Assembly (NCBI GenBank): GCA_963804995.1
Contig: CAWDSK010000006.1
Coordinates: 1,952,001 to 2,016,000 of the forward strand
Length of the DNA stretch: 64,000 nucleotides
Source of the DNA: an uncultured Acidobacteriota bacterium
Lineage (GTDB): Bacteria > Acidobacteriota > Terriglobia > UBA7540
Direction of reading: 5' to 3'
The number at the start of each line of letters is the position of its first letter. Position 1 is the first letter of the stretch. Below are positions 5,064 to 58,020 of this stretch, piece by piece. Both the position numbers and the translations under genes were made by a program. The notes under the pieces were generated by a model. It worked only from the letters and a program-made list of their open reading frames with translations. It was not told the DNA's origin and made no database searches.

Positions 5064-5071
5064 TGTTTTAA

Positions 5072-5327
5072 ATCCGGAATCTTGAATCCGCAATCTCGAA
5101 TCCCCGTCCCTGCTCACAAGCATCCGGAATCATGAGTTTGCAATCTTGAATCGCTGCATGCGTTTACTGGCATCCGGAATCATGAGTTTGCAATCTTGAA
5201 TCGCTGCGCCCGTTTACATCCGGAATCTGGAATCCGGAATCTTGAATCGCCTTTCCCGCGCGGCCAGAGGGGCTTCCGATTCCTTATTCCCTATTTCCTG
5301 TTCCCTGTTCCCTATTCCCTGTTCCCT
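5072..5327. repeat. 37-bp direct repeat (5121, 5171) within heptamer-type short tandem repeats (GAATCYK, CCTGTTC)
   Basis: CATCCGGAATCATGAGTTTGCAATCTTGAATCGCTGC twice, 50 bp apart; CCTRTTC tandem at 5297-5327. Confidence 0.85.
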
Positions 5328-5331
5328 TCCC

Positions 5332-6969
5332 CTACTCTACCACCAGCAAGGCGTGGGGCGGCAGTCGCAGGATCGCGCCGTCGGAAGCGAGTGTGGCGCC
5401 GTCGGTCGCATAGACTTTGGTGTATTTGCGCGCCATCCCTGCCATTCCCGCGAGGCTGCAAGTCACCGGAAGTTCCGTGTAGTTCACCACCGCCACGCGC
5501 CCCCCCAGTGGGAAGACCGCCACACGTGGTGGAGCGTTGAGCGAAGTTACGGTGAATTCTGAAACTTTGTTGCGCAGTTCCGCAAGCGCCGTGCGCAGCT
5601 CCGGCGTGAGTTGCGCCACGCGATTCTGCGCATCCACGCGGGTAAGCTGCGGCAGCGCTTCGGAGAAGATCACCAGCTTTCCATTTCCCACCACAACAGT
5701 TTTAAGGTAATGGTCCTTTTCGAGATCGAGCGATTCCTGGACGGGCAATCGCGGATCAGCATTGAGCCGATGCGCGAGGCTCTGGCTCAGGAAGCCCGTA
5801 CCGGCGGCGGCAAGGAAGCGCGCGAGCTTGGGAACAAACTCCGCATCCTCGAGCGCGTGAACTGTGAAGAGTGCGCCCCGGGCGGTCGTGGGAAAATGCG
5901 CGGTGGGGGCAAGAGGAATTCCCAGCATACCGATCTCATCGAAAATGTACTCTTCGTTTGCGGGCTCGCTCGACACGGGCTTGTAGGTCGGAAGGCCGCC
6001 CCAGCCGGAAACGAATTTGGCGAGCGAGTCATACTGCGGGCGGCGCAAGGCAAGCGCCTCCGCCTGGCCGCGGAATTCCTGCGAGGTCAGCGCCCCGTAG
6101 TGGAAAAGGAAAACCTCCTGCGCGCCCGCCAGCACCGTGGTCAGCGGCTGATCGAGGTACAGAGTGGGTGTCGTGCCGTAAGTGTCGAACCACCCCCCGC
6201 CGGTCTTGGCCCCTCCGACATCGGTGAGCCACCGATAAATGAAGTAGCCCTCGTATTGCTGCTTATGGCCCCACTGGTCGGAACTGGGATCGCGCAACTC
6301 CGTGCCCACCCAGATGCGGTCGTAGAGTGCGGCTTCCTGGTCCGGCACGTAGCCGCGGTCCTGGAAGTGGTCGTACCACTGGGGGAACTTCAAAATCACT
6401 TTCACATTCGGATTCACGGCGCGGGCCGGGCCCAGGACGCGTTCGCGGCTCATCTGGAGCATCAGCTTCTCGCGATATTGCCTCCAGCTCTGTGCACCTT
6501 TCGCCGCCGCGCATTCCGAGCATTCGCAATCCGTGAAAAAGAAATCGTCGATCATGATTTCGTCAAACAGAGCGGCAGTGAAGCAGAAGATCGACTCCAG
6601 CCGCTCCTGGTTCTGGCGATGGGTGTAACAACAGGCCACCGGCCAGTCGCTGGACGGCTTACCGATTCCGGTGGTCGTAACGCAGCCGGAAACCTTCAGG
6701 CCGGCCTGCCGGAAAAATTCGCGCGCGGCTGTGAGGGTGGCTTCCTCCGCCTGGTAACCGTCGCGGAAGGCTTCGATGTAAACCTTGGTGATACCCATCT
6801 TGCGGCAGAATTCCAGCGCCTCCTGGCGGCCCGACGCGCCCGCAAGGTGATCACGCACATCCTGGGCGGTAAAAAGCGTGGACCACTCAACGGCCGTGAG
6901 GGGACGGGGCGAAACAAGCAATGCGCCCAAGAAGAGCGCGGCGAGCACGGCTCCGAAAAACTTCCGCAT
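5332..6969 (-). CDS. Secreted hypothetical protein, possibly glycoside hydrolase-like TIM barrel
   Basis: Signal peptide MRKFFGAVLAALFLG; IMIDDFFFTDCECSEC motif; long ORF. Confidence 0.6.
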   Translation of the reverse strand: MRKFFGAVLAALFLGALLVSPRPLTAVEWSTLFTAQDVRDHLAGASGRQEALEFCRKMGITKVYIEAFRDGYQAEEATLTAAREFFRQAGLKVSGCVTTTGIGKPSSDWPVACCYTHRQNQERLESIFCFTAALFDEIMIDDFFFTDCECSECAAAKGAQSWRQYREKLMLQMSRERVLGPARAVNPNVKVILKFPQWYDHFQDRGYVPDQEAALYDRIWVGTELRDPSSDQWGHKQQYEGYFIYRWLTDVGGAKTGGGWFDTYGTTPTLYLDQPLTTVLAGAQEVFLFHYGALTSQEFRGQAEALALRRPQYDSLAKFVSGWGGLPTYKPVSSEPANEEYIFDEIGMLGIPLAPTAHFPTTARGALFTVHALEDAEFVPKLARFLAAAGTGFLSQSLAHRLNADPRLPVQESLDLEKDHYLKTVVVGNGKLVIFSEALPQLTRVDAQNRVAQLTPELRTALAELRNKVSEFTVTSLNAPPRVAVFPLGGRVAVVNYTELPVTCSLAGMAGMARKYTKVYATDGATLASDGAILRLPPHALLVVE

Positions 6970-7351
6970 AAAACTCGGTGACTTATCGGAGGATGATGGC
7001 ATCAAGGAAGGTCTCCTTGGGGGAAGATGGCCAGACAGGGCCAAGACACCTTGCCTGCCCCACGCGGGGCGTAGATGCACACCATAGCGGAATCGAGAGG
7101 CAAAGGGAAGGGGGCCACGGGCGGGGCTAACGATCGGGAGATCGGGTGATCCGGTGATCGGGTGATCGGGTCATTTGTGAATGGCGATTGGTGATTGGCG
7201 ATTTTCGAAGTCAGTATTTGATTCATCTTCTCACTTGGCGCCGCCGATAACCGAAGCGAGGAAGTATGTGCCGGCCGCGTCAGGCAATCGGGTGATTTGG
7301 TCATCAGGCCATTGGCCCATCGATTCATCGGTCCATGGCGAAAGTTCATAG

Positions 7352-7445
7352 CCCTCTCCGAGGGGAGAGGGTGGACCGCCGCCGGCGTACTCACCAGCCG
7401 GGGCGGGAAGGGGGCCCCACGTTTTGCGCGGTGGGGGTGAGGGGG
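7352..7445. repeat. REP-like palindrome family CCCTCTCC..GGAGAGGG..GGGTGAGGGG
   Basis: Related copies at 13646-13669, 17499-17567, 17641-17688, 30213-30345, 56878-57006. Confidence 0.8.
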
Positions 7446-8571
7446 TAAGCTGCTGTTGTGGCCCACTCAATTTCCCTCATCCTCAGCGTCGAGCCCGCCG
7501 ATAACCGAAGCGGGGGAGTGCGGGCCGCCGGGGGCTGAGGATCGGGAGATGCGGTGATCCGGAGATCGGGTGATCGAATGATAGGAGCAGCACGTCACTG
7601 CCAGGCTCCGGTCGGCCGAATTGAGCTCATGTTCCTGTGCCGTCCATCCGATTACCGATGTGGGGAAGTGCGTCACGGCCGGGCGATTTTCGGTAGATGG
7701 GGTTCGTGGCTCGCCGCGGGTCTTCCGGGCCGTTGCGGTTTTCTGTCCCCGCAGTGACAACCGGTGGCCAAAGTAGGGGGCTGCGGCGGGTCGGTTAGGG
7801 CAGCGGGCCTCACCGCTTTTAATCTCCTGTGCAACGCTTTTCCTACCTTCCAGTTTCGCCCCGATCATCGCGTCACCCGTTTCTTTCAGCCCTTTTCTCG
7901 ATGGGGGTTCTTTCCTGTCCCAATTTGTACGCAGCGCCGCCCGCTTGGCGGGTCAATGCCGGCTGGAGGCCGACGCTTGGTTCGAATTGGGACGGCTTGC
8001 TCCATTTTTCCCCCACTTATTTCATCTAACTACATTTATTTTCATAAACATCGTTAGAAAAAACGCATAACTTACTTGTTTTCATCAACATCGTTAGACT
8101 TGCCAATTTGTCGCTTTTATTTTCCTTTGTTTTCATACACATCGTTAGACTATGCCAATCGAAATTATGTTGCCCTCTTCTTCTTTCCTCAGTAAAGACA
8201 ACTTATTTTATTTCAACTAGATAGATTTTTGCCAAAAACCCCCTCGCCACCCCTAACCACTTTTGTTTTCATGAACATCTTCACAAACAGCGGACCCTGC
8301 GTGCCGATAAACGGAAGAACTTTAGCCGCGTCTTGGCACGGCGCTGCGCTCACCCAGAGCCTCTCCGTGACCTCTGCTCTTCGGGACGCAGAGGACACAG
8401 AGAAATGTCTGCCAAGAAAACCAGCCTTGACGGTAGGGCATGGCAGACTCCCGATTCTGGGGCCCGTGGTCGTTCGGTAGAGAGGGCTGACTGGACGCAT
8501 CGGGGCACTACGCTTCCTCACCTCTATTGTGCGCTTGATCCACTGGGCTATGTCAATAGGCAATACACGCG

Positions 8572-37490: not shown

Positions 37491-37808
37491 ATGGCCATGA
37501 ATAGTGGAGTTCTCACTGTAAGTGACACCCTCGATGTTCACGCATTTCCCGTAGATGCGCAGAACGCACTTGAGTCAGGGAATGTCCCTTCTTCTTCTGT
37601 CCGGGACGAGGCCATTCGAGCTCGGCTCGCCGACGTTGCCCAGCAAGAGGTAAGGCGTCGACGCTTGCTGGAGATATTGAGAAGACCGACTCCCGCTTGG
37701 AATCCTGACGACCATCCCGACATCGACGCGGCGGGCGGTGCCGCTGAATGGGTGAGGAAGCTACGCAGTGAGGCAGAGCGGGGATTTGAAAGGCGCACTC
37801 GAAACTAA
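37491..37808 (+). CDS. Probable antitoxin
   Basis: Directly upstream of the PIN gene; AW..DDHPDI...AAEWVRKLR motif. Confidence 0.6.
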   Translation: MAMNSGVLTVSDTLDVHAFPVDAQNALESGNVPSSSVRDEAIRARLADVAQQEVRRRRLLEILRRPTPAWNPDDHPDIDAAGGAAEWVRKLRSEAERGFERRTRN

Positions 37809-37816
37809 GAGCGGGA

Positions 37817-38206
37817 ATGATCATACTTCTTGATACTTCTGTTATCATCGATGCCCTGCGCATACGGCGTGGCCGGCGCGAGTTTTTGGACCAGAGAAAC
37901 CAGGCCGGTGACACGCTCGCGTGTTCTGCCGTTAGCGTGGCGGAAGTCTACGCCGGGATGAGACCCAACGAGGCGGCTGCCACGGAGGAATATATTGAAA
38001 ACCTGGTCTGTATCGAAGTTACTCAGGAAATTGCGCGAACGGCGGGTAGCTTGAAGTACGCGTGGGAGCGCAAGGGAGTCACCATCGACATCCCGGACGC
38101 TATCATTGCCGCAACGACTCTTAATTTCAATCTGTACTTGGCTACGGACAATCTCCGGGATTTTCCCATGCCGGAATTGAACCATCTCAACCTCCCGACA
38201 ACTTAG
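37817..38206 (+). CDS. PIN domain (VapC-like) toxin
   Basis: LLDTSVIID, VAEVYAG, PDAIIAAT, LATDNLRDF. Confidence 0.9.
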   Translation: MIILLDTSVIIDALRIRRGRREFLDQRNQAGDTLACSAVSVAEVYAGMRPNEAAATEEYIENLVCIEVTQEIARTAGSLKYAWERKGVTIDIPDAIIAATTLNFNLYLATDNLRDFPMPELNHLNLPTT

Positions 38207-40343: not shown

Positions 40344-40372
40344 TTGACAGGTTTTGAGAACTGCGATAGTTT
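40344..40372 (+). promoter_or_regulatory. Sigma70 promoter for the tRNA repeat array
   Basis: TTGACA-17 nt-TAGTTT, ending 14 nt before the first repeat. Confidence 0.75.
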
Positions 40373-40386
40373 GAAAAGGTTCTCGC

Positions 40387-40742
40387 AGGCCCGTAGCTCA
40401 GCCCGGTTAGAGCGGGCCGACCCGTCGGCCAGGTCTGGGGCGGGAGAAGCAGATAGCAATTCACAGACAGCACGTAGGCCCGTAGCTCAGCCCGGTTAGA
40501 GCGGGCCGACCCGTCGGCCAGGTCTGGGGCGGGAGAAGCAGATAGCAATTCACAGACAGCACGTAGGCCCGTAGCTCAGCCCGGTTAGAGCGGGCCGACC
40601 CGTCGGCCAGGTCTGGGGCGGGAGAATCAGATAGCAGTTCAGAGACAGCACGTAGGCCCGTAGCTCAGCCCGGTTAGAGCGGGCCGACCCGTCGGCCAGG
40701 TCTGGGGCGGGAGAATCAGATAGCAGTTCAGACACAGCACGT
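40387..40742 (+). repeat. Four tandem 89-bp tRNA-Val-derived repeats with the anticodon arm replaced by a hairpin
   Basis: Units start at 40387, 40476, 40565, 40654; 54 nt tRNA-like plus a near-identical 35-nt spacer. Confidence 0.95.
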
Positions 40743-40820
40743 AGGCCCGTAGCTCAGCCCGGTTAGAGCGCTACCTTGACACGGTAGAGGTCTGGGGTTC
40801 GAGTCCCCACGGGCCTACCA
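40743..40820 (+). tRNA. tRNA-Val (GAC)
   Basis: Cloverleaf: AGGCCCG/CGGGCCT acceptor, GCTC/GAGC D-stem, CTACC-TTGACAC-GGTAG, TGGGG-TTCGAGT-CCCCA, encoded CCA. Confidence 0.97.
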
Positions 40821-40831
40821 TTGGTTCCTTG

Positions 40832-41083
40832 ATGGCTTTCCTCTAAATCCTGGAGAGTCTGACAACAGGCCGCTTTTACATCGGTTCCACCAGCGATCTC
40901 GACCGCCGCATCGAGGAGCACCAGCGAGGGCACACGCCGTCCACGCGAGGCCGCGGCCCGTGGAAACTCGCTTATCGCGAATCCTACCCAAGCTTGCGCG
41001 AGGCTCGCAAACGCGAACTCGAAATCAAGTGCTGGAAATCCGCGAAGCTAATCCAACAATTGATGGCGAGCCAGCCCGGTTAG
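40832..41083 (+). pseudogene. GIY-YIG nuclease copy 1, nonsense TAA at codon 5
   Basis: MAFL*ILES..RFYIGST..RR..EH; 14 of 83 positions differ from copy 2. Confidence 0.85.
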
Positions 41084-41136
41084 AGCGGGCCGCCCGGTCG
41101 GCCAGGTCTGGGGTTCGAGTCCCCACGGGCCTACCA
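41072..41136 (+). repeat. Pseudo-tRNA 3' portion (D-loop to CCA) with replaced anticodon arm
   Basis: cagcccggttagagcg-GGCCGCCCGGTCGGCC-aggtctggggttcgagtccccacgggcctacca. Confidence 0.9.
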
Positions 41137-41148
41137 TTTGGTTCCTTG

Positions 41149-41400
41149 ATGGCTTTCCTCTATATCCTGGAGAGTCTGACAACCGGCCGCTTCTACATCG
41201 GTTCAACCAGCGATTTCGACCGCCGCATGCAGGAGCACGAGCGCGGACACACGCCCTCCACGAGAGGTCGGGGCCCGTGGAAACTCGTCTATCGAGAGTC
41301 GTTCCGGAGTTTACTTGAGGCCCGAAGGCGTGAGGCGGAAATCAAGCGCTGGAAATCAGCAAAGCTAATCCAACAATTGATTGCGAGCCGGCCCGGTTAG
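41149..41400 (+). CDS. Small GIY-YIG nuclease, copy 2 (intact, 83 aa)
   Basis: FLYIL...FYIGST..FDRR..EH...PWKLVYRE...ARRREAEIK. Confidence 0.9.
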   Translation: MAFLYILESLTTGRFYIGSTSDFDRRMQEHERGHTPSTRGRGPWKLVYRESFRSLLEARRREAEIKRWKSAKLIQQLIASRPG

Positions 41401-41453
41401 AGCGGGCCGACCGGTCGGCCAGGTCTGGGGTTCGAGTCCCCACGGGCCTACCA
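41391..41453 (+). repeat. Pseudo-tRNA 3' portion with perfect 16-bp palindrome in place of the anticodon arm
   Basis: gcccggttagagcg-GGCCGACCGGTCGGCC-aggtctggggttcgagtccccacgggcctacca. Confidence 0.9.
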
Positions 41454-41772
41454 TTACTTTCAACAATCTAGCAATCTCGCTTGCCTTTCGCGTTGCTCCA
41501 CATTCCTTCAATAAGTGCCTAAGTTCTTGCATCCACTGACCCACCTTGGCCACAACGACCCCACGCGCCAGAGGAACTCCCAACAATCCGGTCCTGAGTT
41601 GCGATGCGTTCGCCTGAGACAACCACGCTGGTAACATTGGCGCATATTTGAGCCCTCCCTGGGCAGGATGCCAGAGGAACGTACCAACCCGCCAATTGAC
41701 TAACACCGGGGAGCCGCCGTATGATCTTGAGAATTCCCAATTTGGAGATTGTCTCCGGAGGTTGTAGCACAT

Positions 41773-42129: not shown

Positions 42130-43272
42130 ATGAGCGAATACCAGTATTACGACTTCCGGGCGATAGATCAGGCGCTGACCAAGGCTGACATCGCTGCCCT
42201 GCGATCCATTTCCACGCGCGCCATAATCACTTCGACGAGTTTTACGAATCACTACGAGTGGGGAGACCTAAAGGCCGATCCCCTCAAACTTCTGGAAAAG
42301 TACTTCGACGCGTTTGTTTACGTCGCGAATTGGGGGACGCGAGAGTTCTATCTTCGACTTCCACGGGAGTTGGCCGACTACGGACAGCTCAAAGCTATGC
42401 TTCCCGGCGACGCCGCCCGTGTGCAAAGAGTTGGAAAACACCTGATCGTCGGTTTTGAAGCGCAGTCGGAGATGGATGACTGGGATGATGGCACCGGCTG
42501 GATGGGTTCTCTGCTGTCTCTGCGCTCGGACCTGCTGCGTGGCGACCGCCGCTGTCTTTATCTCGGATGGCTCCTGTGCGTGCAATGTGATGAATTCTCT
42601 GAAGAGGAACTGGAGCCTCCGGTGCCTCCCGGCTTGGGCCAATTGTCGGCTCCTCTCCATTCACTGATCGAGTTTCTTGGAATCGACGAGGACCTTGTCG
42701 AAGTTGCCGCATCGGCTTCAGCGCCGCTGAGCGCTGCCCCGAGCCGGAAGGAATTGGCGGAGTGGATTCAAAATCTACCCGAAAAGGAAAAGAACGATTT
42801 GCTTCTAACCGCTGCGTTGGAATCCGGTGAACGCGGGAAAATCGAATTTCTGCGGCGCTTTCAGCAACAAAATGCAGCACGAACCTTGGACGCACACGCC
42901 GCAATTAAACCCCGTACAGTCCACGATCTTGTAACTGCGGCCAAGACACGCGCAGAAGAGAGAACCCGCCGATTGGAAGCCAAGCGGGCAGCGGAAGCAG
43001 CGCGACAGAAAGCGAAGGACGAGGCCGACCGCGCACGCTATCTGGATCAACTGGAGAAAAGCGAAGGAGAGACTTGGAATCGCATCACGGCACACATCCA
43101 GAAGCGGCAACCGAACGAATATGACAAGGCGGTCAGCTTACTGATCGACCTGCGCGATCTTGCCGTCCGCAAGCAACGTGTTTCTGAATTTCAGTCAGCG
43201 CTGGAGGAACTCCGCCATGCGCACGCCGCCAAGCACAGTTTTCTACGCCGGCTGGAGAAGGCAGAGTTTTGA
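42130..43272 (+). CDS. Conserved hypothetical protein
   Basis: MSEYQYYDFRAID..LT, FDAFVYVANWGTR, YLGWL; abuts the upstream gene. Confidence 0.8.
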   Translation: MSEYQYYDFRAIDQALTKADIAALRSISTRAIITSTSFTNHYEWGDLKADPLKLLEKYFDAFVYVANWGTREFYLRLPRELADYGQLKAMLPGDAARVQRVGKHLIVGFEAQSEMDDWDDGTGWMGSLLSLRSDLLRGDRRCLYLGWLLCVQCDEFSEEELEPPVPPGLGQLSAPLHSLIEFLGIDEDLVEVAASASAPLSAAPSRKELAEWIQNLPEKEKNDLLLTAALESGERGKIEFLRRFQQQNAARTLDAHAAIKPRTVHDLVTAAKTRAEERTRRLEAKRAAEAARQKAKDEADRARYLDQLEKSEGETWNRITAHIQKRQPNEYDKAVSLLIDLRDLAVRKQRVSEFQSALEELRHAHAAKHSFLRRLEKAEF

Positions 43273-43643
43273 TGAGACTGTTGGCAAGTGGTCATATAGC
43301 CAAAGGTCCGAATAATTCCGCCACCGAAAGCGGTGCGTCAATAGGTTTGCCCTTGCTTTTTGTTCCGATGAGGCGTACGGGGTTGAAGTTGAAACGTCTG
43401 GCTGGGTGGTTCAATTTAAAGTAGGGGCCTCATTAGGCCGCAATTTGGTGGGGCAAGCTCGCCGCTACTGCATCAAATTAACCCATCACCGACGATGGGT
43501 GCCATTTCAAGGAGCGCGGAGAGGAGCAGTTAGTTGTTATGAGTTGTGTGTAATGAGGTAGGAATTAGGTTTCAGGTGTTTGGTGTCAACTTTCAACTTT
43601 GAACTCTTAACTTTCAACTCTTAACTGTCACCCCGCCCCCGCC

Positions 43644-50918: not shown

Positions 50919-53855
50919 CTACGAGCACCCGCTGGTCGATCCGCAATTCAGACACTTATAGCAGGCGCCGTTACGAACCATGATGGCACCGCAATCGGCG
51001 CAACTCGGGGCGTCATCGCTCTGGTTGACACCCGCCAAACCCGCCTGCATCGGCGACGAGGTAAATCCGATTGCCGGCGCCGGAGCTTCGGCGGTGGCGC
51101 GAGAGAACTGCGCGGCGATCTCCGTAGCTTTTTCCGCCTCCGTGCCGTTCAGTGATTGCACGCTGGCGTCCTCGCGAGGCTGGGCGTCGCGCGGCAGGAA
51201 CTTGTATGCCAGCCACCGGAAGATGTAATCCATCACTGACTTGGCGTAGCGGATTTCCGGATTGGGCGTCCAGCCGCTGGGCTCGAAGCGCGTGTGGCTG
51301 AACTTATCGCACAGCACCTTGAGTGGTACGCCGTATTGCAGGGCCAGCGAAACCGCGGTGGCGAAGGAATCCATCAGACCCGATACGGTTGAGCCTTCCT
51401 TGGCCATGGTGATGAAGATCTCGCCGGGTTGGCCGTCTTCATAAAGGCCCACGGTCAGGTAGCCCTCGTGTTGCGCCACGGAGAATTTGTGGGTGATAGC
51501 ACGGCGCTCGTCAGGAAGCTTGTGACGGAAAGGCTGCGGCGCGCTGGGGGCCGGGGCTTCAGTCTTGCCTGTCTTTGGTTCCGCATTGCCTGTTCCCTGT
51601 TCCCTATTCCCTGTTCCCTGACTTTTCGGTTTCGCGTCGGAAGTGTTGAGTGGTTGCGAGCGCTTGGAGGCGTCGCGATAAATGGCGATGGCCTTCAGTC
51701 CCAGCCGCCAGCCCTCGGTATAGACGTTGGCGATTTCCTCAGCGGTCGCATCTTCCGGCATATTAACTGTCTTGGAAATGGCGCCGGAAAGGAAGGGCTG
51801 CACGGCGGCCATCATGCGCACGTGGCCCATGTAGTGGATGGAGCGCTTGCCGTTGGCGGGTTTCAGCGAGCAATCGAACACCGGCAGGTGCTCCGGCTTC
51901 AGGTGCGGAGCGCCCTCGATGGTGCCCTGCTGGTCGATGTAGTTGACGATGTCGCCTGCTTCCTGCTCCGTATAGCCCAGCCGCAGCAGCGCCGTGGGCA
52001 CCACGTTGTTGACGATTTTGATCAGACCGCCGCCCACCAGCTTCTTGTACTTCACCAGCGCCAGGTCCGGCTCAATGCCCGTGGTGTCGCAATCCATCAG
52101 GAAGCCGATCGTCCCCGTTGGCGCCAGCACCGTAACTTGCGCGTTGCGGTAGCCATACTTCATGCCGCTCGCCAGGCAATCATCCCAGGTCTTCTTGGCC
52201 GCTTCCCACAGGTTCTCCGGAACGTTGTGCGAGTTGATGTGCTGCAACGCCTGGCGGTGCATGGAAATGACGCCCAGGAAGGAATCCCGATTCAGGGGGA
52301 AGCCCGCGCAGGGCTCCAGCTCCGCCGCGATGCGCGAGGATTGCAGGTAAGACTCACCGTGCATAAGGGCAGTGATGGCCGCAGCGTAATCACGGCCGCC
52401 ATCGGAATCGTAGGGCAGACCGTTGGCCATCAGCAATGCGCCCAGGTTGGCATAGCCCAGGCCTAGGGGGCGGAAGTCGTGCGAGTTAAGCGCGATCCGC
52501 TCCGTCGGGTAGCTCGCGTTATCCACCAGAATTTCCTGCGCCGTGGTCATGATGTCGACGGCGTGCCGGAACGACTCCACGTCGAACTTGCCGTCGGGCG
52601 TGAGGAACTTCATCAGGTTCAGGGACGACAGGTTGCAGGCCGAATCGTCCAGGAACATATACTCGCTGCAGGGATTCGACGCGTTGATGGGCGCCGTGGC
52701 TTTGGACGTATGCCACTTGTTGATGGTGGTGTGGAACTGCATGCCCGGGTCGCCGCACTGCCACGCAGCCTCGGCGATCTTCTTCATCAGGTCGCGCGCC
52801 CGGTGCACCTTGGCGGTCTCACCGGTGCTGATGCGGCGCGTCGTCCAGTCCTTGTCTTCGATGACGGCTTTCATGAACTCGTCGGTGACGCGCACGCTGT
52901 TGTTGGCATTCTGGAAGAAGACGGAGCTGTACGCCTCACCGTCGATGGCAGAATCGTAACCGACATCCACCAGCGCCCAGGCCTTGCGTTCCTCCTTCGC
53001 CTTGCACTCAATGAACTCCTCGATGTCGGGGTGATCGACGTTGAGGATCACCATCTTGGCGGCGCGGCGGGTCTTGCCACCCGATTTGATGACGCCCGCA
53101 AACGCGTCGTAGCCTTTCATGAAGGAGAGGGGACCGGAGGCCACACCGCCACCCGACAGCGACTCGACTGAGGACCTGAGTGGTGAGAGGTTCGTACCCG
53201 TACCCGAACCCCACTTGAAGAGCATCCCTTCCACTTTAGCCAGATTCAGGATGCTTTCGAGGTTGTCCTGGACGGAGTTGATGAAGCAGGCTGAGCACTG
53301 AGGGTGCCGGTAGGCCTCGGTCTCCTTCTTGATGCCGCCCGTGGCCGGATCCCAATACCAGCCGCCCCCCTGGGAGGTGCGGTGATACTTGTGCCACAAG
53401 CCGCAATTGAACCAAACCGGGGAATTGAACGCCGCCTTTTGGCGGACCAGGATGTGCGTCAGTTCATCGTGAAAAGTTCTGGCGTCTTCCTCGCTGCGGA
53501 AGTAGCCGCCCTCCACACCCCATTGCGCGATGGTGTCGGCCACGCGGCTGATCAGTTGCCGCACGCTCGTTTCGCGCTCCGGCGAACCCAGTTTGCCGTG
53601 GAAATACTTCGAGGCCACAATGTTGGTGGCCGTCTGCGTCCAGTCCTTCGGCACTTCCACATTGCGCTGCTCGAATATGATCTTTCCCTTTTCGTTCTGA
53701 ATCGAAGCCGTGCGAAGCTCCCACTCGAGCTCGTCGAAAGGATGCACACCCGCCTTGGTCGAAACCCGCTTGACCGCGATGCCGCGCTTGCTTTGACTGT
53801 CTGTGGAAGGGGCCCAGGATTTGGTCTCCATCGACACAACGTCACGCTCAGACAT
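50919..53855 (-). CDS. nrdJ: Vitamin B12-dependent (class II) ribonucleotide reductase
   Basis: FNSPVWFN, QCSACFI, SNPCSEY, APTGTIG, SGAISKTVN, C-terminal CADC..CLNCGSTSGCS. Confidence 0.95.
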   Translation of the reverse strand: MSERDVVSMETKSWAPSTDSQSKRGIAVKRVSTKAGVHPFDELEWELRTASIQNEKGKIIFEQRNVEVPKDWTQTATNIVASKYFHGKLGSPERETSVRQLISRVADTIAQWGVEGGYFRSEEDARTFHDELTHILVRQKAAFNSPVWFNCGLWHKYHRTSQGGGWYWDPATGGIKKETEAYRHPQCSACFINSVQDNLESILNLAKVEGMLFKWGSGTGTNLSPLRSSVESLSGGGVASGPLSFMKGYDAFAGVIKSGGKTRRAAKMVILNVDHPDIEEFIECKAKEERKAWALVDVGYDSAIDGEAYSSVFFQNANNSVRVTDEFMKAVIEDKDWTTRRISTGETAKVHRARDLMKKIAEAAWQCGDPGMQFHTTINKWHTSKATAPINASNPCSEYMFLDDSACNLSSLNLMKFLTPDGKFDVESFRHAVDIMTTAQEILVDNASYPTERIALNSHDFRPLGLGYANLGALLMANGLPYDSDGGRDYAAAITALMHGESYLQSSRIAAELEPCAGFPLNRDSFLGVISMHRQALQHINSHNVPENLWEAAKKTWDDCLASGMKYGYRNAQVTVLAPTGTIGFLMDCDTTGIEPDLALVKYKKLVGGGLIKIVNNVVPTALLRLGYTEQEAGDIVNYIDQQGTIEGAPHLKPEHLPVFDCSLKPANGKRSIHYMGHVRMMAAVQPFLSGAISKTVNMPEDATAEEIANVYTEGWRLGLKAIAIYRDASKRSQPLNTSDAKPKSQGTGNREQGTGNAEPKTGKTEAPAPSAPQPFRHKLPDERRAITHKFSVAQHEGYLTVGLYEDGQPGEIFITMAKEGSTVSGLMDSFATAVSLALQYGVPLKVLCDKFSHTRFEPSGWTPNPEIRYAKSVMDYIFRWLAYKFLPRDAQPREDASVQSLNGTEAEKATEIAAQFSRATAEAPAPAIGFTSSPMQAGLAGVNQSDDAPSCADCGAIMVRNGACYKCLNCGSTSGCS

Positions 53856-56650: not shown

Positions 56651-58020
56651 GGGCTACCGGTAGCCCAAACCCACACATTGCCTATTGACATAGGCCAGTC
56701 GACTAAGAGCACAATAGAGGTGAGGAAGCGTAGCGCCCTGATGTGTCCAAGCAGCAATCTCTACCGAACAACCACGGGCCCCCAAATCGGGGGTCTGCCA
56801 TGCCATCCCGTGAATGCTGATTTCTTTAGCGAACCTTTTGGGGCAAGGGTTGAAAGTCACGGCTTCCGTCGAAGCAACCCCTCATCCGCTTCGTACCTCA
56901 GCACCTTCTCCCCGGGGAGAAGGTGGGAAATTAAACCGCCCTCTCCGAGGGGAGAGGGTGGACCGCCGCCGGCGTTTTCATCAGCCGGGGCGGGACGGGT
57001 GAGGGGTCACTTCGCCAGCGCATAACCACTTGGCAGCCCGCGCGCTCCCTCTGGAGATTCGCAGGTCCATCCTCAAGCGGCCTAGGGTGAGTCTGGCGGC
57101 ACGCGAGGCGTTCCGATTTGATTGGCTATTACACCTCATGAACACGCCGACAAACGTCCGGGAAGAGGCACTGACCCGTAGAGATGTTAAAAATGAAGGT
57201 CGATCCGGGGATGCGTATGAAAACACAGGAGCAGCGACACAATGTCAGGCTATTGTTTGGGCTTTTTGCAGAAAACACCGGAGTTTTGTGACAATGGACG
57301 ACAATCGAACGGGATTGTGGGTCGAAAATACACGGATTACGCCATAAATCGGGGTGAAGTAGCGCCGACCTTCAGATCCCGCCCTGAGCACCGCGAGGGG
57401 TCGGCACATGCGGACGTAGCGCCGACCGGAACCTGTCCCGACCTGGTCGGGAGGTCGGCACATGCTGAAGTAAAGTTCAGCACTACAAAAGGCCGTGGCT
57501 TTCCATTATGTTCATGAAAAGAAATAGGGTTACTGATAATGAGGGAAAAAATGGGAAGAAGAAATCATCGATCGGGATGAGGCTTTGAGGAGACGGGTAG
57601 CGCGATGGTCAAAGTGAAGCCGGAAGGTGCGATAGGCATTGGACGGGCGGTCAAAAGTGGTGGGGCCAGCCGTTTAAACCGATCTGCCGCAGCCGCCTAC
57701 TTCAGCCTCCGGTTGTCACTGCGGCGACAGAAAACAGTGTCGGCGCGGAAAGCAAGTGGCACAGGCGACCCACACCCCCGACCGAATGCCTCCCGTCCGG
57801 GACACACTTCCCCGTATCGGTAATCGGCAGTGCCAGGTGAGAAGATGAATCAAAGGCTGACTGCGAAAATCGCCAATCACAAATCGCCAATCACAAATCG
57901 CCATTCACCAATCAGCCGATCCCCCGATCACCAGATCAACCGATCACCCGATTCCCAGCCCCCGCCGGCACGCACTCCCCCAAATCGGTTATCGGTGGGT
58001 TGGCGCACGAAGATGAGCAT
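56651..58020 (+). repeat. Dispersed composite element, copy 2 (homologous to 7130-8593)
   Basis: Same collinear blocks as copy 1, with different REP insertions. Confidence 0.85.

What the first reader, a model, noticed from the sequence alone, without database searches (positions are those of the whole stretch)
40344..41453. tRNA-Val locus carrying GIY-YIG nuclease cassettes and six anticodon-replaced tRNA copies: candidate undescribed system
Seen: promoter, then 4x89-bp pseudo-tRNA, intact tRNA-Val(GAC), then 2x[83-codon GIY-YIG gene + tRNA 3' part ending CCA], all on one strand. Established: GIY-YIG is a nuclease fold used by homing and repair endonucleases, and tRNA-shaped RNA is cut by RNase P/Z. 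Inference: this is a tRNA-targeting selfish or defensive module in which the nuclease is tied to creating or expanding the tRNA mimics. The mimics could be processing signals, nuclease-resistant target copies, or decoys for anticodon nucleases or tRNA-targeting integrases. I know of no characterised system with this layout.
Basis: partly seen in the sequence, partly recalled or inferred. Interest (0 to 1): 0.92.

Follow-up and report, generated by a model that had tools for sequence, protein, structure and literature searches.

The report
Selfish mini-nuclease cassette at tRNA-Val
A tiny DNA-cutting gene sits right behind a working valine tRNA gene, among broken part-copies of that tRNA whose anticodon arm is swapped for a conserved hairpin; the same package recurs in many soil bacteria and looks like an undescribed kind of selfish DNA rather than a set of tRNA decoys.

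Summary
The layout is real, with two corrections: the first nuclease copy is broken (stop at codon 5), and none of the six 'tRNA copies' is a whole tRNA (four lack the 3' end, two the 5' end). In all six a 16-nt hairpin stands exactly where the anticodon arm was. The package recurs: 60 of 80 related genes lie within 300 bp of a tRNA gene (42 at tRNA-Val GAC). The hairpin stem is conserved with compensatory changes; the tRNA-derived parts follow the local tRNA in 32 of 34 scorable loci. It is patchy (12 of 201 genomes of the class), with empty alleles, broken copies and gene-less arrays. The protein is a bare 83-aa GIY-YIG domain closest to prokaryotic Slx1-like proteins. Best reading (0.55): a selfish nuclease-plus-hairpin cassette that nicks next to its own hairpin and spreads and amplifies by recombination with the tRNA gene; the cutting step is inferred. 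It works like Ssn/NTS and sits like SegB, but is shown to be neither. Decoy or RNase P signal readings are weak. Ten paper searches found no description. This scan had already noted the same cassette at other tRNA genes in other genomes.

The parts
40344..40372 (+). promoter-like element of the tRNA-Val gene (-35 box, 17-nt spacer, weak -10 box)
   Evidence: sequence; conserved in 9 of 16 same-genus upstream regions; not reported by the consensus scan
40387..40475 (+). 89-bp unit 1: tRNA bases 1-28, hairpin 40415-40430 in place of the anticodon arm, 10 tRNA bases, 35-nt tail of unknown origin
40476..40564 (+). 89-bp unit 2, identical to unit 1; hairpin 40504-40519
40565..40653 (+). 89-bp unit 3 (3 changes, all in the tail); hairpin 40593-40608
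40654..40742 (+). 89-bp unit 4 (4 changes, all in the tail); hairpin 40682-40697
40743..40820 (+). intact tRNA-Val(GAC) gene with encoded CCA; anticodon arm 40771-40787
   Evidence: ARAGORN; Rfam RF00005 67.8 bits; sole Val(GAC) gene
40832..41083 (+). GIY-YIG gene copy 1, broken by TAA at codon 5 (40844-40846); 83% identical to copy 2; final stop lies in the D-loop remnant
41072..41136 (+). 3' pseudo-copy 1: D-arm remnant, hairpin 41088-41103 (one stem mismatch), variable loop, T arm, 3' acceptor strand, CCA
41149..41400 (+). intact 83-codon single-domain GIY-YIG gene (Y5, Y16, G18, R26, E62 invariant); last Gly codon and stop are D-loop bases
41391..41453 (+). 3' pseudo-copy 2: D-arm remnant, perfect hairpin 41405-41420, variable loop, T arm, 3' acceptor strand, CCA
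41456..41645 (-). not part of the cassette: decayed left end of an integrative element, with a remnant of an integrase start; it directly follows the intact tRNA in cassette-free G005
   Evidence: 55% over 55 aa, E 2e-18; PF00589 in the adjoining G005 frame

Best explanation
A minimal selfish element: one single-domain, Slx1-like GIY-YIG nuclease gene plus its own short hairpin, which lives in tRNA genes. SHOWN: the 317-bp cassette reads tRNA 3' end, nuclease gene ending in the D loop, hairpin in place of the anticodon arm, second tRNA 3' end, so the host keeps one intact tRNA; the hairpin is conserved as a stem, the tRNA parts are copied from the local tRNA; the cassette is patchy, duplicates, decays and leaves gene-less arrays. 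INFERRED (from Ssn and Slx1 chemistry): the protein binds the hairpin when the DNA is single-stranded (replication, transcription of the tRNA gene, or incoming DNA) and nicks a few bases beside it, in tRNA-identical sequence, most likely 5-16 bases into the variable loop/T arm. The freed end pairs with the neighbouring or a recipient tRNA gene and is repaired off it. This refreshes the pseudo-copy, gives unequal exchanges (the 4 x 89-bp and 2 x 317-bp arrays here), and lets the cassette enter a new tRNA gene without an integrase. Events that leave no intact tRNA are selected against. Integrative elements that use the same tRNA may carry it between cells. The six copies in this window are handles and scars of this process, not functional RNAs.
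For: Link to tRNA: 60 of 80 genome loci have an ARAGORN tRNA within 300 bp (42 Val-GAC) and 10 more a tRNA-Val 3' half, against about 1% expected from 72 tRNAs in 7.55 Mb (hand estimate) and 0 of 6 for GIY-YIG genes of the other, GTCAT-repeat type. Link to hairpin: strict pattern right behind the gene in 42 of 80; in the class sample 11 of 12 nuclease-positive genomes against 17 of 189 others, reversed-pattern control 9 of 201; the twelfth has a variant stem. Stem: 95% of cells paired, 4 of 7 pairs with changes on both sides, loop free, as for Ssn, where loop identity is dispensable and stem sequence matters. Local copying: T arm and acceptor variant equals that of the own tRNA (0-1 mismatch) in 32 of 38 loci, differs in 2, absent or cut in 4; rare variants are tracked (L043, L048, L050). 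Junctions: upstream copies stop matching the tRNA 5-16 bases behind the hairpin; chimeric copies with a foreign first T-stem strand and local remainder (L046; L137; G015) and a wholly foreign T arm (L075) point to arrival from other lineages. Selfish pattern: 12 of 201 genomes; 2 of 16 same-genus tRNA-Val loci; empty allele in G005; premature stops in G000, G040, G159; gene-less 87-bp arrays at tRNA-Ile in G145. Protein: closest solved relatives are UPF0213 proteins 1ZG2/1YWL, HIGLE and Slx1, which act on branched DNA.
Against: No activity, substrate or cut site was measured. In ordinary homologous repair the cut molecule is the recipient, so nicking one's own hairpin could as well erase it; spread by a cut donor is inferred. 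Membership of the Ssn family is not shown and the SRM motif is absent near the gene. Related loci are kin and some are the same DNA found by two calls, so counts overstate independence; the loci were picked by words from my own alignment. Patchiness fits repeated loss between the 35-bp direct repeats as well as gain; no tree could be built. Some loci hold full-length hairpin cloverleaves (L192; ARAGORN 'Pro(cgg)' calls in L058, L116, L118, L144, L161), which leaves room for an RNA role. The conserved T-arm pairing (92%) would also fit selection on RNA.
Confidence: 0.55

Rival explanations
1. A free-standing homing-type endonuclease (SegB-like): it cuts the intact tRNA gene in or near the anticodon arm; repair off a cassette-bearing donor inserts the cassette, and the hairpin copies are resistant donor alleles or scars.
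For: The hairpin replaces the anticodon arm exactly in the Val, Ala and Ile groups; protein groups go with tRNA types (Val mostly 60-83% identity, Ala 53-61% in the nearest group, Ile 43-56%); the cut molecule is normally the recipient; SegB cuts tRNA genes, its own host's too, and is thought to be held down by low expression, and drives tandem amplification of tRNA regions.
Against: 83 aa with no separate DNA-binding domain, Slx1-like rather than I-TevI-like (Foldseek E 9e-6 for 1ZG2 and 3e-3 to 9e-3 for HIGLE/Slx1, against 0.12 for I-TevI); the intact target lies 11 bp from the gene and is identical to that of cassette-free genomes; resistance does not require a conserved, compensated stem; in other groups the hairpin sits after the D stem, after the anticodon loop or in the T loop (L011, L014, L024).
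Confidence: 0.2
2. A passive hitchhiker: the cassette is debris at the attachment site of tRNA-Val-targeting integrative elements, moved and duplicated by their integrases; the nuclease plays no part in mobility.
For: Eight genome loci with enough upstream DNA have the cassette behind a tRNA-Val 3' half that starts in the anticodon loop (L033, L036, L038, L039, L044, L079, L080, L087); arm-like repeats flank it on both sides in L087; G040 has it, 97% identical, at both ends of a 10.9-kb segment; an integrase remnant follows it in this window.
Against: Does not explain the conserved hairpin, the upstream 5' copies or the invariant catalytic residues; G005 has the same island end without the cassette; no integrase frame of 130 aa or more was seen in the G040 segment; only 2 of 43 viral loci were full-length relatives.
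Confidence: 0.12
3. A domesticated or defensive RNA system: the copies are transcribed with the tRNA and act as decoys, processing signals or regulators of the nuclease message.
For: All parts lie on one strand behind a conserved promoter-like element; the 3' copies keep a paired T arm and CCA; weak mascRNA-like scores below threshold (25.8 and 20.2 bits against 42.5); full-length hairpin cloverleaves exist in some loci.
Against: No copy here has both acceptor strands; the anticodon loop that anticodon nucleases read (own knowledge) is gone; folds no better than shuffles; stem changes are mostly on both sides (11 cells) and rarely G-U (3 cells), a weak sign of DNA rather than RNA; upstream tails vary freely and copies decay in G003 and G019; no PADLOC match.
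Confidence: 0.08
4. An assembly artefact.
For: No public contig spans the array; the stop in copy 1 and the count of four units rest on one assembly.
Against: Units 3 and 4 carry their own changes and the two cassettes differ by 13-14%; the same layout is in many independent assemblies.
Confidence: 0.02

Closest known systems
Ssn family (cd10448) with NTS/SRM hairpins; Chenal et al. 2025, PMC11893778 (read: parts 1-6 of 11, abstract to methods on assays; term search of the main text; supplements not opened)
   Same: Single-domain GIY-YIG of about 80-100 aa; same spacing of the catalytic Tyr, Tyr, Glu (Y5, Y16, E62 here; Y6, Y17, E64 in SsnA); gene flanked by its own hairpin with conserved stem and free loop; authors liken NTS-ssnA-NTS to mobile elements.
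   Different: The hairpin here is 16-19 nt, does not match the SRM consensus near the gene, is not dispersed in hundreds of copies but confined to one tRNA gene, and replaces the anticodon arm. The protein lacks the C-terminal NP..W extension of the GTCAT-repeat type (31-35% identity to those). The paper's main text has 0 mentions of tRNA.
SegB of phages T4/T6; PMC2330249 (read: abstract and part 1 of 2 of the discussion) and PMC13096335 (read: abstract and two results sections)
   Same: Free-standing GIY-YIG gene in a tRNA transcript; cuts within tRNA genes; drives homing and tandem amplification of tRNA regions by recombination.
   Different: SegB is a phage dsDNA endonuclease with a proposed C-terminal NUMOD3 binding part that reads the T-arm motif; no cognate hairpin or anticodon-replaced copies appear in the parts read. 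The protein here is a bare chromosomal domain of the Slx1-like lineage tied to one tRNA.
Prokaryotic Slx1-like / UPF0213 proteins (PDB 1ZG2, 1YWL); Dunin-Horkawicz et al. 2006, PMC1564403 (read: passages by term search)
   Same: Best sequence and structure matches (E 9.7e-13 and 3.3e-6; Foldseek rank 1); stand-alone minimal domain without the C-terminal Asn of the UvrC/homing lineage.
   Different: Those were predicted to be DNA-repair enzymes; the passages read give no tRNA-gene or hairpin link. The clade here is patchy and tRNA-bound.
REP/RAYT and IS200/IS605 hairpin systems (as cited in PMC11893778; otherwise recalled)
   Same: Small enzyme plus cognate ssDNA hairpin; gene-less hairpin arrays amplify.
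   Different: Those use HUH tyrosine transposases that cut and rejoin; a GIY-YIG domain only hydrolyses (own knowledge), so spread must rely on host recombination.

Membership tests
GIY-YIG superfamily | GIY-YIG domain with Tyr, Tyr-x-Gly, Arg and Glu of the active site | tested here: met
   PF01541 E 2.6e-14; Y5, Y16, G18, R26, E62 invariant in 33 homologues; model pLDDT 87, three strands and three helices
Ssn (cd10448) | single domain of about 80-100 aa with the SsnA catalytic Tyr/Tyr/Glu | tested here: met
   83 aa; Y5/Y16/E62 against Y6/Y17/E64
Ssn (cd10448) | cd10448 profile hit or E < 1e-10 to N. meningitidis SsnA | not testable with these tools
   Neither CDD nor that sequence was on hand. 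Indirect: 39% identity, E 1.5e-9, to the one locus with SRM matches (L015); 31-35% to four GTCAT-repeat-flanked proteins, whose C-terminal extension is missing here
Ssn (cd10448) | SRM motif in the flanks | tested here: not met
   Relaxed supersets of the published consensus give 6 and 4 matches in the 64-kb window, near chance, none between 37.0 and 43.7 kb
Ssn (cd10448) | site-specific cleavage of ssDNA next to the cognate hairpin; no dsDNA or RNA activity | not testable with these tools
   needs the purified protein
SegB-type free-standing homing endonuclease | gene next to tRNA genes | tested here: met
   11 bp behind tRNA-Val here; 60 of 80 loci
SegB-type free-standing homing endonuclease | C-terminal DNA-binding region (NUMOD3-type) behind the catalytic domain | tested here: not met
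   83 aa, domain only; TIGR01453 24.5 bits against a cut-off of 56. Only proteins of 45-146 aa were searched, so longer relatives were not looked for
SegB-type free-standing homing endonuclease | occupied allele differs from the empty allele at the cut site | tested here: not met
   tRNA-Val identical in 16 same-genus genomes with or without the cassette. SegB itself is not fully immune either, so this lowers but does not exclude
Prokaryotic Slx1-like / UPF0213 | stand-alone minimal domain, no C-terminal Asn, closest to 1ZG2/1YWL | tested here: met
Prokaryotic Slx1-like / UPF0213 | structure-selective nicking of branched DNA | not testable with these tools
   needs an assay
tRNA mimic / RNase P substrate | paired acceptor stem stacked on the T arm, 3' CCA | tested here: not met
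   each copy lacks one acceptor strand; z -0.4 to -0.8; 5' side not conserved; Rfam below threshold
Known anti-phage defence systems | match to a PADLOC model | tested here: not met
   0 families for the nuclease and three downstream proteins

The most novel reading that the evidence does not exclude
A new class of mobile element that needs no transposase, integrase or reverse transcriptase: a 317-bp unit whose 83-aa nuclease reads a hairpin grafted onto a tRNA gene's anticodon arm, cuts beside it in single-stranded DNA and uses the universal conservation of tRNA genes as homology arms to jump between lineages; by changing the tRNA sequence around the hairpin it retargets to other tRNAs (Val, Ala, Ile, Asp, Asn, Lys, Arg, Met, Pro seen in related loci). 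It would give a family of very small hairpin-directed ssDNA nucleases, parallel to Ssn, and a function for a large part of the prokaryotic Slx1-like proteins.
Probability: 0.35. Interest if true: 0.9.

Novelty: new variant of a known kind. Interest (0 to 1): 0.7.

Why it matters
Small stand-alone GIY-YIG proteins are common and mostly without a function. Here one clade comes with an obvious candidate substrate: a conserved 16-19-nt hairpin in a fixed tRNA context, with natural variants in stem, loop and target tRNA. A 40-60-nt oligo assay can therefore decide between a hairpin-directed ssDNA nuclease and a tRNA-gene cutter. If the best reading holds, it is one of the smallest autonomous selfish elements, explains a class of pseudo-tRNA calls in uncultured bacteria (several such copies are mis-called as tRNA-Pro or -Thr by ARAGORN), and adds compact programmable-type ssDNA nucleases beside Ssn.

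Tried and rejected
Rfam at E-value threshold: only the true tRNA passes; mascRNA and tymovirus hits are below gathering score and rejected. NCBIfam and PADLOC gave no family. Viral contigs: 43 loci, only L191 and L192 (49%) cover the protein; the rest are short matches to other GIY-YIG genes, so a phage origin was not supported. Sequencing runs: no RNA holder listed, so nothing on expression; four DNA runs were contigs that break at the repeats, so nothing on copy number. Origin of the 35-nt tail: no other match in the genome; it is loosely alike in G006, G015, G003, G019; resemblances by eye to the promoter spacer and to the gene's 3' end were too weak and were dropped. The hairpin is not a dispersed repeat of this cassette: the five other genome matches are four GTAG-type palindromic repeats and one not inspected. 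One search used mis-set columns and is void; one search replaces it. A genome-wide SRM count and a protein tree were not obtained. No complex prediction was run, as no protein-protein claim is made. Paper searches (listings only, except the four papers named) found no description of this layout; the library lacks most subscription papers, and the supplements of PMC11893778, which list flanks of GIY-YIG genes, were not opened. Look-ups of earlier findings by sequence gave nothing.
Full report
1. What is in the sequence. Behind a promoter-like element (40344-40372) lie four 89-bp units, one intact tRNA-Val(GAC) at 40743-40820 and two 317-bp cassettes. Each 89-bp unit holds tRNA bases 1-28, a 16-nt hairpin, ten more tRNA bases and a 35-nt tail found nowhere else in the genome. 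Each cassette holds a GIY-YIG gene (PF01541) whose last Gly codon and stop are bases of the tRNA D loop, then the hairpin, then the last 33 tRNA bases with CCA. The hairpin stands exactly where the 17-nt anticodon arm stands in the tRNA. Gene copy 1 has a stop at codon 5, and its hairpin has a stem mismatch. No copy is a whole tRNA: each lacks one acceptor strand, none folds better than shuffles as RNA, and ARAGORN and Rfam accept only the true tRNA. The tRNA is the only Val(GAC) gene of the genome.

2. It is not an artefact. The same order of parts is in other assemblies (L002, L003, L004, L005 at tRNA-Val; L006 at tRNA-Ile). A contig of a public run covers 41178-41389 with two differences, but none spans the array. 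The kind of structure is safe; the count of four units and the codon-5 stop rest on one assembly.

3. The link to tRNA genes. An alignment of 33 of the 120 listed homologues fetched the best 80 of 100 genome loci, mostly Terriglobia and other Acidobacteriota. Sixty of 80 have an ARAGORN tRNA within 300 bp: 42 Val(GAC), 18 others (Ala, Asn, Asp, Arg, Lys, Cys, Ser, other Val, one undetermined); ten more have only a tRNA-Val 3' half in front, two of them at a contig start; of the last ten, four lie at or near contig starts. About 1% would be expected from 72 tRNAs in 7.55 Mb (hand estimate). Six GIY-YIG genes of another type, flanked by long GTCAT palindromes, have no tRNA nearby (L021, L025, L026, L028, L030, L269). 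The 80 metagenome loci show the same picture but were not tallied. These loci are kin and partly redundant, so the counts show conservation, not independent events.

4. The link to the hairpin. A strict pattern finds it right behind the gene in 42 of the 80 genome loci. In 201 genomes drawn from the class, 12 have a close nuclease (E <= 1e-20); 11 of these have the pattern, the twelfth a variant stem, against 17 of the other 189; the reversed pattern hits 9 of 201 (the tally includes unpublished G130). Three of the 17 hold more distant nucleases (G041, G049, G057). On 58 aligned downstream regions, misses included, the 7-bp stem is paired in 95% of cells, with changes on both sides in 4 of 7 pairs, while the loop varies in length and sequence (0 of 500 shuffles, slid controls lower; relatedness inflates this).

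5. The tRNA parts are local, the hairpin travels. For 38 loci I compared the pseudo-copy with the locus's own tRNA. T arm and acceptor variant agree within one mismatch in 32, differ in 2 (L065, L075) and are absent or cut in 4. Rare variants are followed (L043, L048, L050), and in L041, L045, L048, L055 and L067 the match runs some bases past CCA. Upstream copies stop matching the tRNA 5-16 bases behind the hairpin. In L046, L137 and G015 the first bases behind the hairpin are those of another tRNA-Val variant while the rest is local or absent. So a donor-recipient junction lies just behind the hairpin.

6. It behaves like selfish DNA. Sixteen same-genus genomes have the identical tRNA-Val; only G000 and G006 have the nuclease behind it. 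In G005 the tRNA is followed directly by the DNA that follows the last pseudo-copy here, an empty allele. G015 has one hairpin unit and no adjacent gene; G003 and G019 have decayed units. G145 has six 87-bp gene-less or gene-end units at tRNA-Ile. Premature stops occur in G000, G040 and G159. The gene can lie before or behind the intact tRNA (L004, L007, L137). The DNA after 41455 is the decayed end of an integrative element. In eight loci the cassette follows a tRNA 3' half of the attachment-site kind, and in G040 it stands, 97% identical, at both ends of a 10.9-kb segment; no integrase frame was seen in that segment. Patchiness could also come from repeated loss between the 35-bp direct repeats; no tree was built.

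7. The protein. It is one domain (pLDDT 87) with invariant Y5, Y16, G18, R26, E62. Its closest solved relatives are the UPF0213 proteins 1ZG2 and 1YWL, then HIGLE and Slx1; I-TevI and UvrC rank far lower. It lacks the C-terminal Asn of the UvrC/homing lineage. This places it among prokaryotic Slx1-like proteins.

8. Mechanism. The best model is a nuclease that binds its own hairpin in single-stranded DNA and nicks beside it, in sequence identical to the tRNA gene; repair off the neighbouring or a recipient tRNA gene refreshes, amplifies and spreads the cassette and leaves one intact tRNA (0.55). Shown are the anatomy, the conservation pattern, local copying, the junction zone and the patchy, decaying distribution. 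Inferred are binding, nicking, strand and spread. The precedent is SsnA, a 94-aa GIY-YIG protein that cuts ssDNA a few bases upstream of its hairpin, needs the stem sequence but not the loop, and ignores dsDNA and RNA. The main rival is SegB-like cutting of the intact tRNA gene (0.2), favoured by the exact replacement of the anticodon arm and by the rule that the cut molecule is the recipient; against it are the missing binding domain, the unchanged target next door and the conserved stem. Passive carriage by integrative elements (0.12) may add to either. An RNA decoy or processing role (0.08) fits this window badly, though full-length hairpin cloverleaves exist elsewhere.

9. Known systems. 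It works like Ssn/NTS, but the SRM flank is not met, cd10448 could not be tested, and the Ssn paper does not mention tRNA in its main text. It sits like SegB but fails the domain test. It is not filed under either. Ten searches showed no paper on this layout; the library is incomplete and the Ssn supplements were not opened.

10. Earlier notes of this scan. Eight findings on other genomes describe the same cassette at tRNA-Lys, -Asp, -Gln, -Arg, -Pro and -Ala. They are unchecked notes and are not counted as support; they gave me the lead to PMC13096335 and agree with a reading I had formed before the look-up. This locus adds the Acidobacteriota Val group, the empty allele, the junction zone and the tandem arrays.

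11. Verdict. Real, conserved, apparently undescribed in print; a new variant of the small-nuclease-plus-hairpin kind, specialised to tRNA genes. Interest 0.7; the most novel reading (an integrase-free mobile class) has probability 0.35 and would deserve 0.9.

Noticed in passing
G000 C2:651643, C3:273860, C5:10478, C9:175883 (L264-L267): Four dispersed GTAG-type palindromic repeats have the same 7-bp outer stem as the pseudo-tRNA hairpin, with a longer inner stem. Chance or shared origin is open.
   Followed up: partly
G000 C6:1226340-1226579 (L269): A second small GIY-YIG gene (33% identical) among long GTCAT-type palindromic repeats, Ssn-like, with no tRNA nearby.
   Followed up: partly
G000 C5:1304904-1309125: A dense array of 26 tRNA genes in about 4.2 kb, typical of a mobile tRNA array.
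   Followed up: no
L003, L004, L039, L076, T loop of pseudo-copies: A second, unrelated hairpin-like repeat has entered the T loop of the pseudo-copy; L271 has a GTCAT-type repeat inside the hairpin itself.
   Followed up: no
L011, L014, L024, L009, L012: In more distant nuclease groups the hairpin replaces other parts: after the D stem (Lys, Arg), after the anticodon loop (Asn, Met), in the T loop (Met); L012 sits at the 3' end of tmRNA.
   Followed up: partly
L085, L191: Inverted layout: the intact tRNA lies on the strand opposite to the nuclease gene; in L085 each strand has its own hairpin copy.
   Followed up: partly
L008, L007, L064, L071, L137, L187: Upstream copies that include a duplicate of the tRNA promoter region; L008 has a tandem run of such 121-bp units at tRNA-Ala.
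   Followed up: partly
L087, L049, L066, L073, L084: Cassettes in assemblies labelled Verrucomicrobiia, Elarobacter, Baltobacteraceae and Fimbriimonadaceae; transfer between phyla or mis-binned contigs.
   Followed up: no
window 42130-43272 and L273:2964-4109: A 380-aa gene of no Pfam or NCBIfam family follows tRNA-Val closely in both this genome and G020: recurrent island cargo at this site.
   Followed up: no
window 5071-5334, 7132-7575, 43586-43630, 51578-51620, 57867-57958: Clusters of short 7-, 8-, 14- and 50-bp tandem repeats.
   Followed up: no
window 37491-38206: A PIN-domain gene with a small upstream partner, a likely toxin-antitoxin pair.
   Followed up: no
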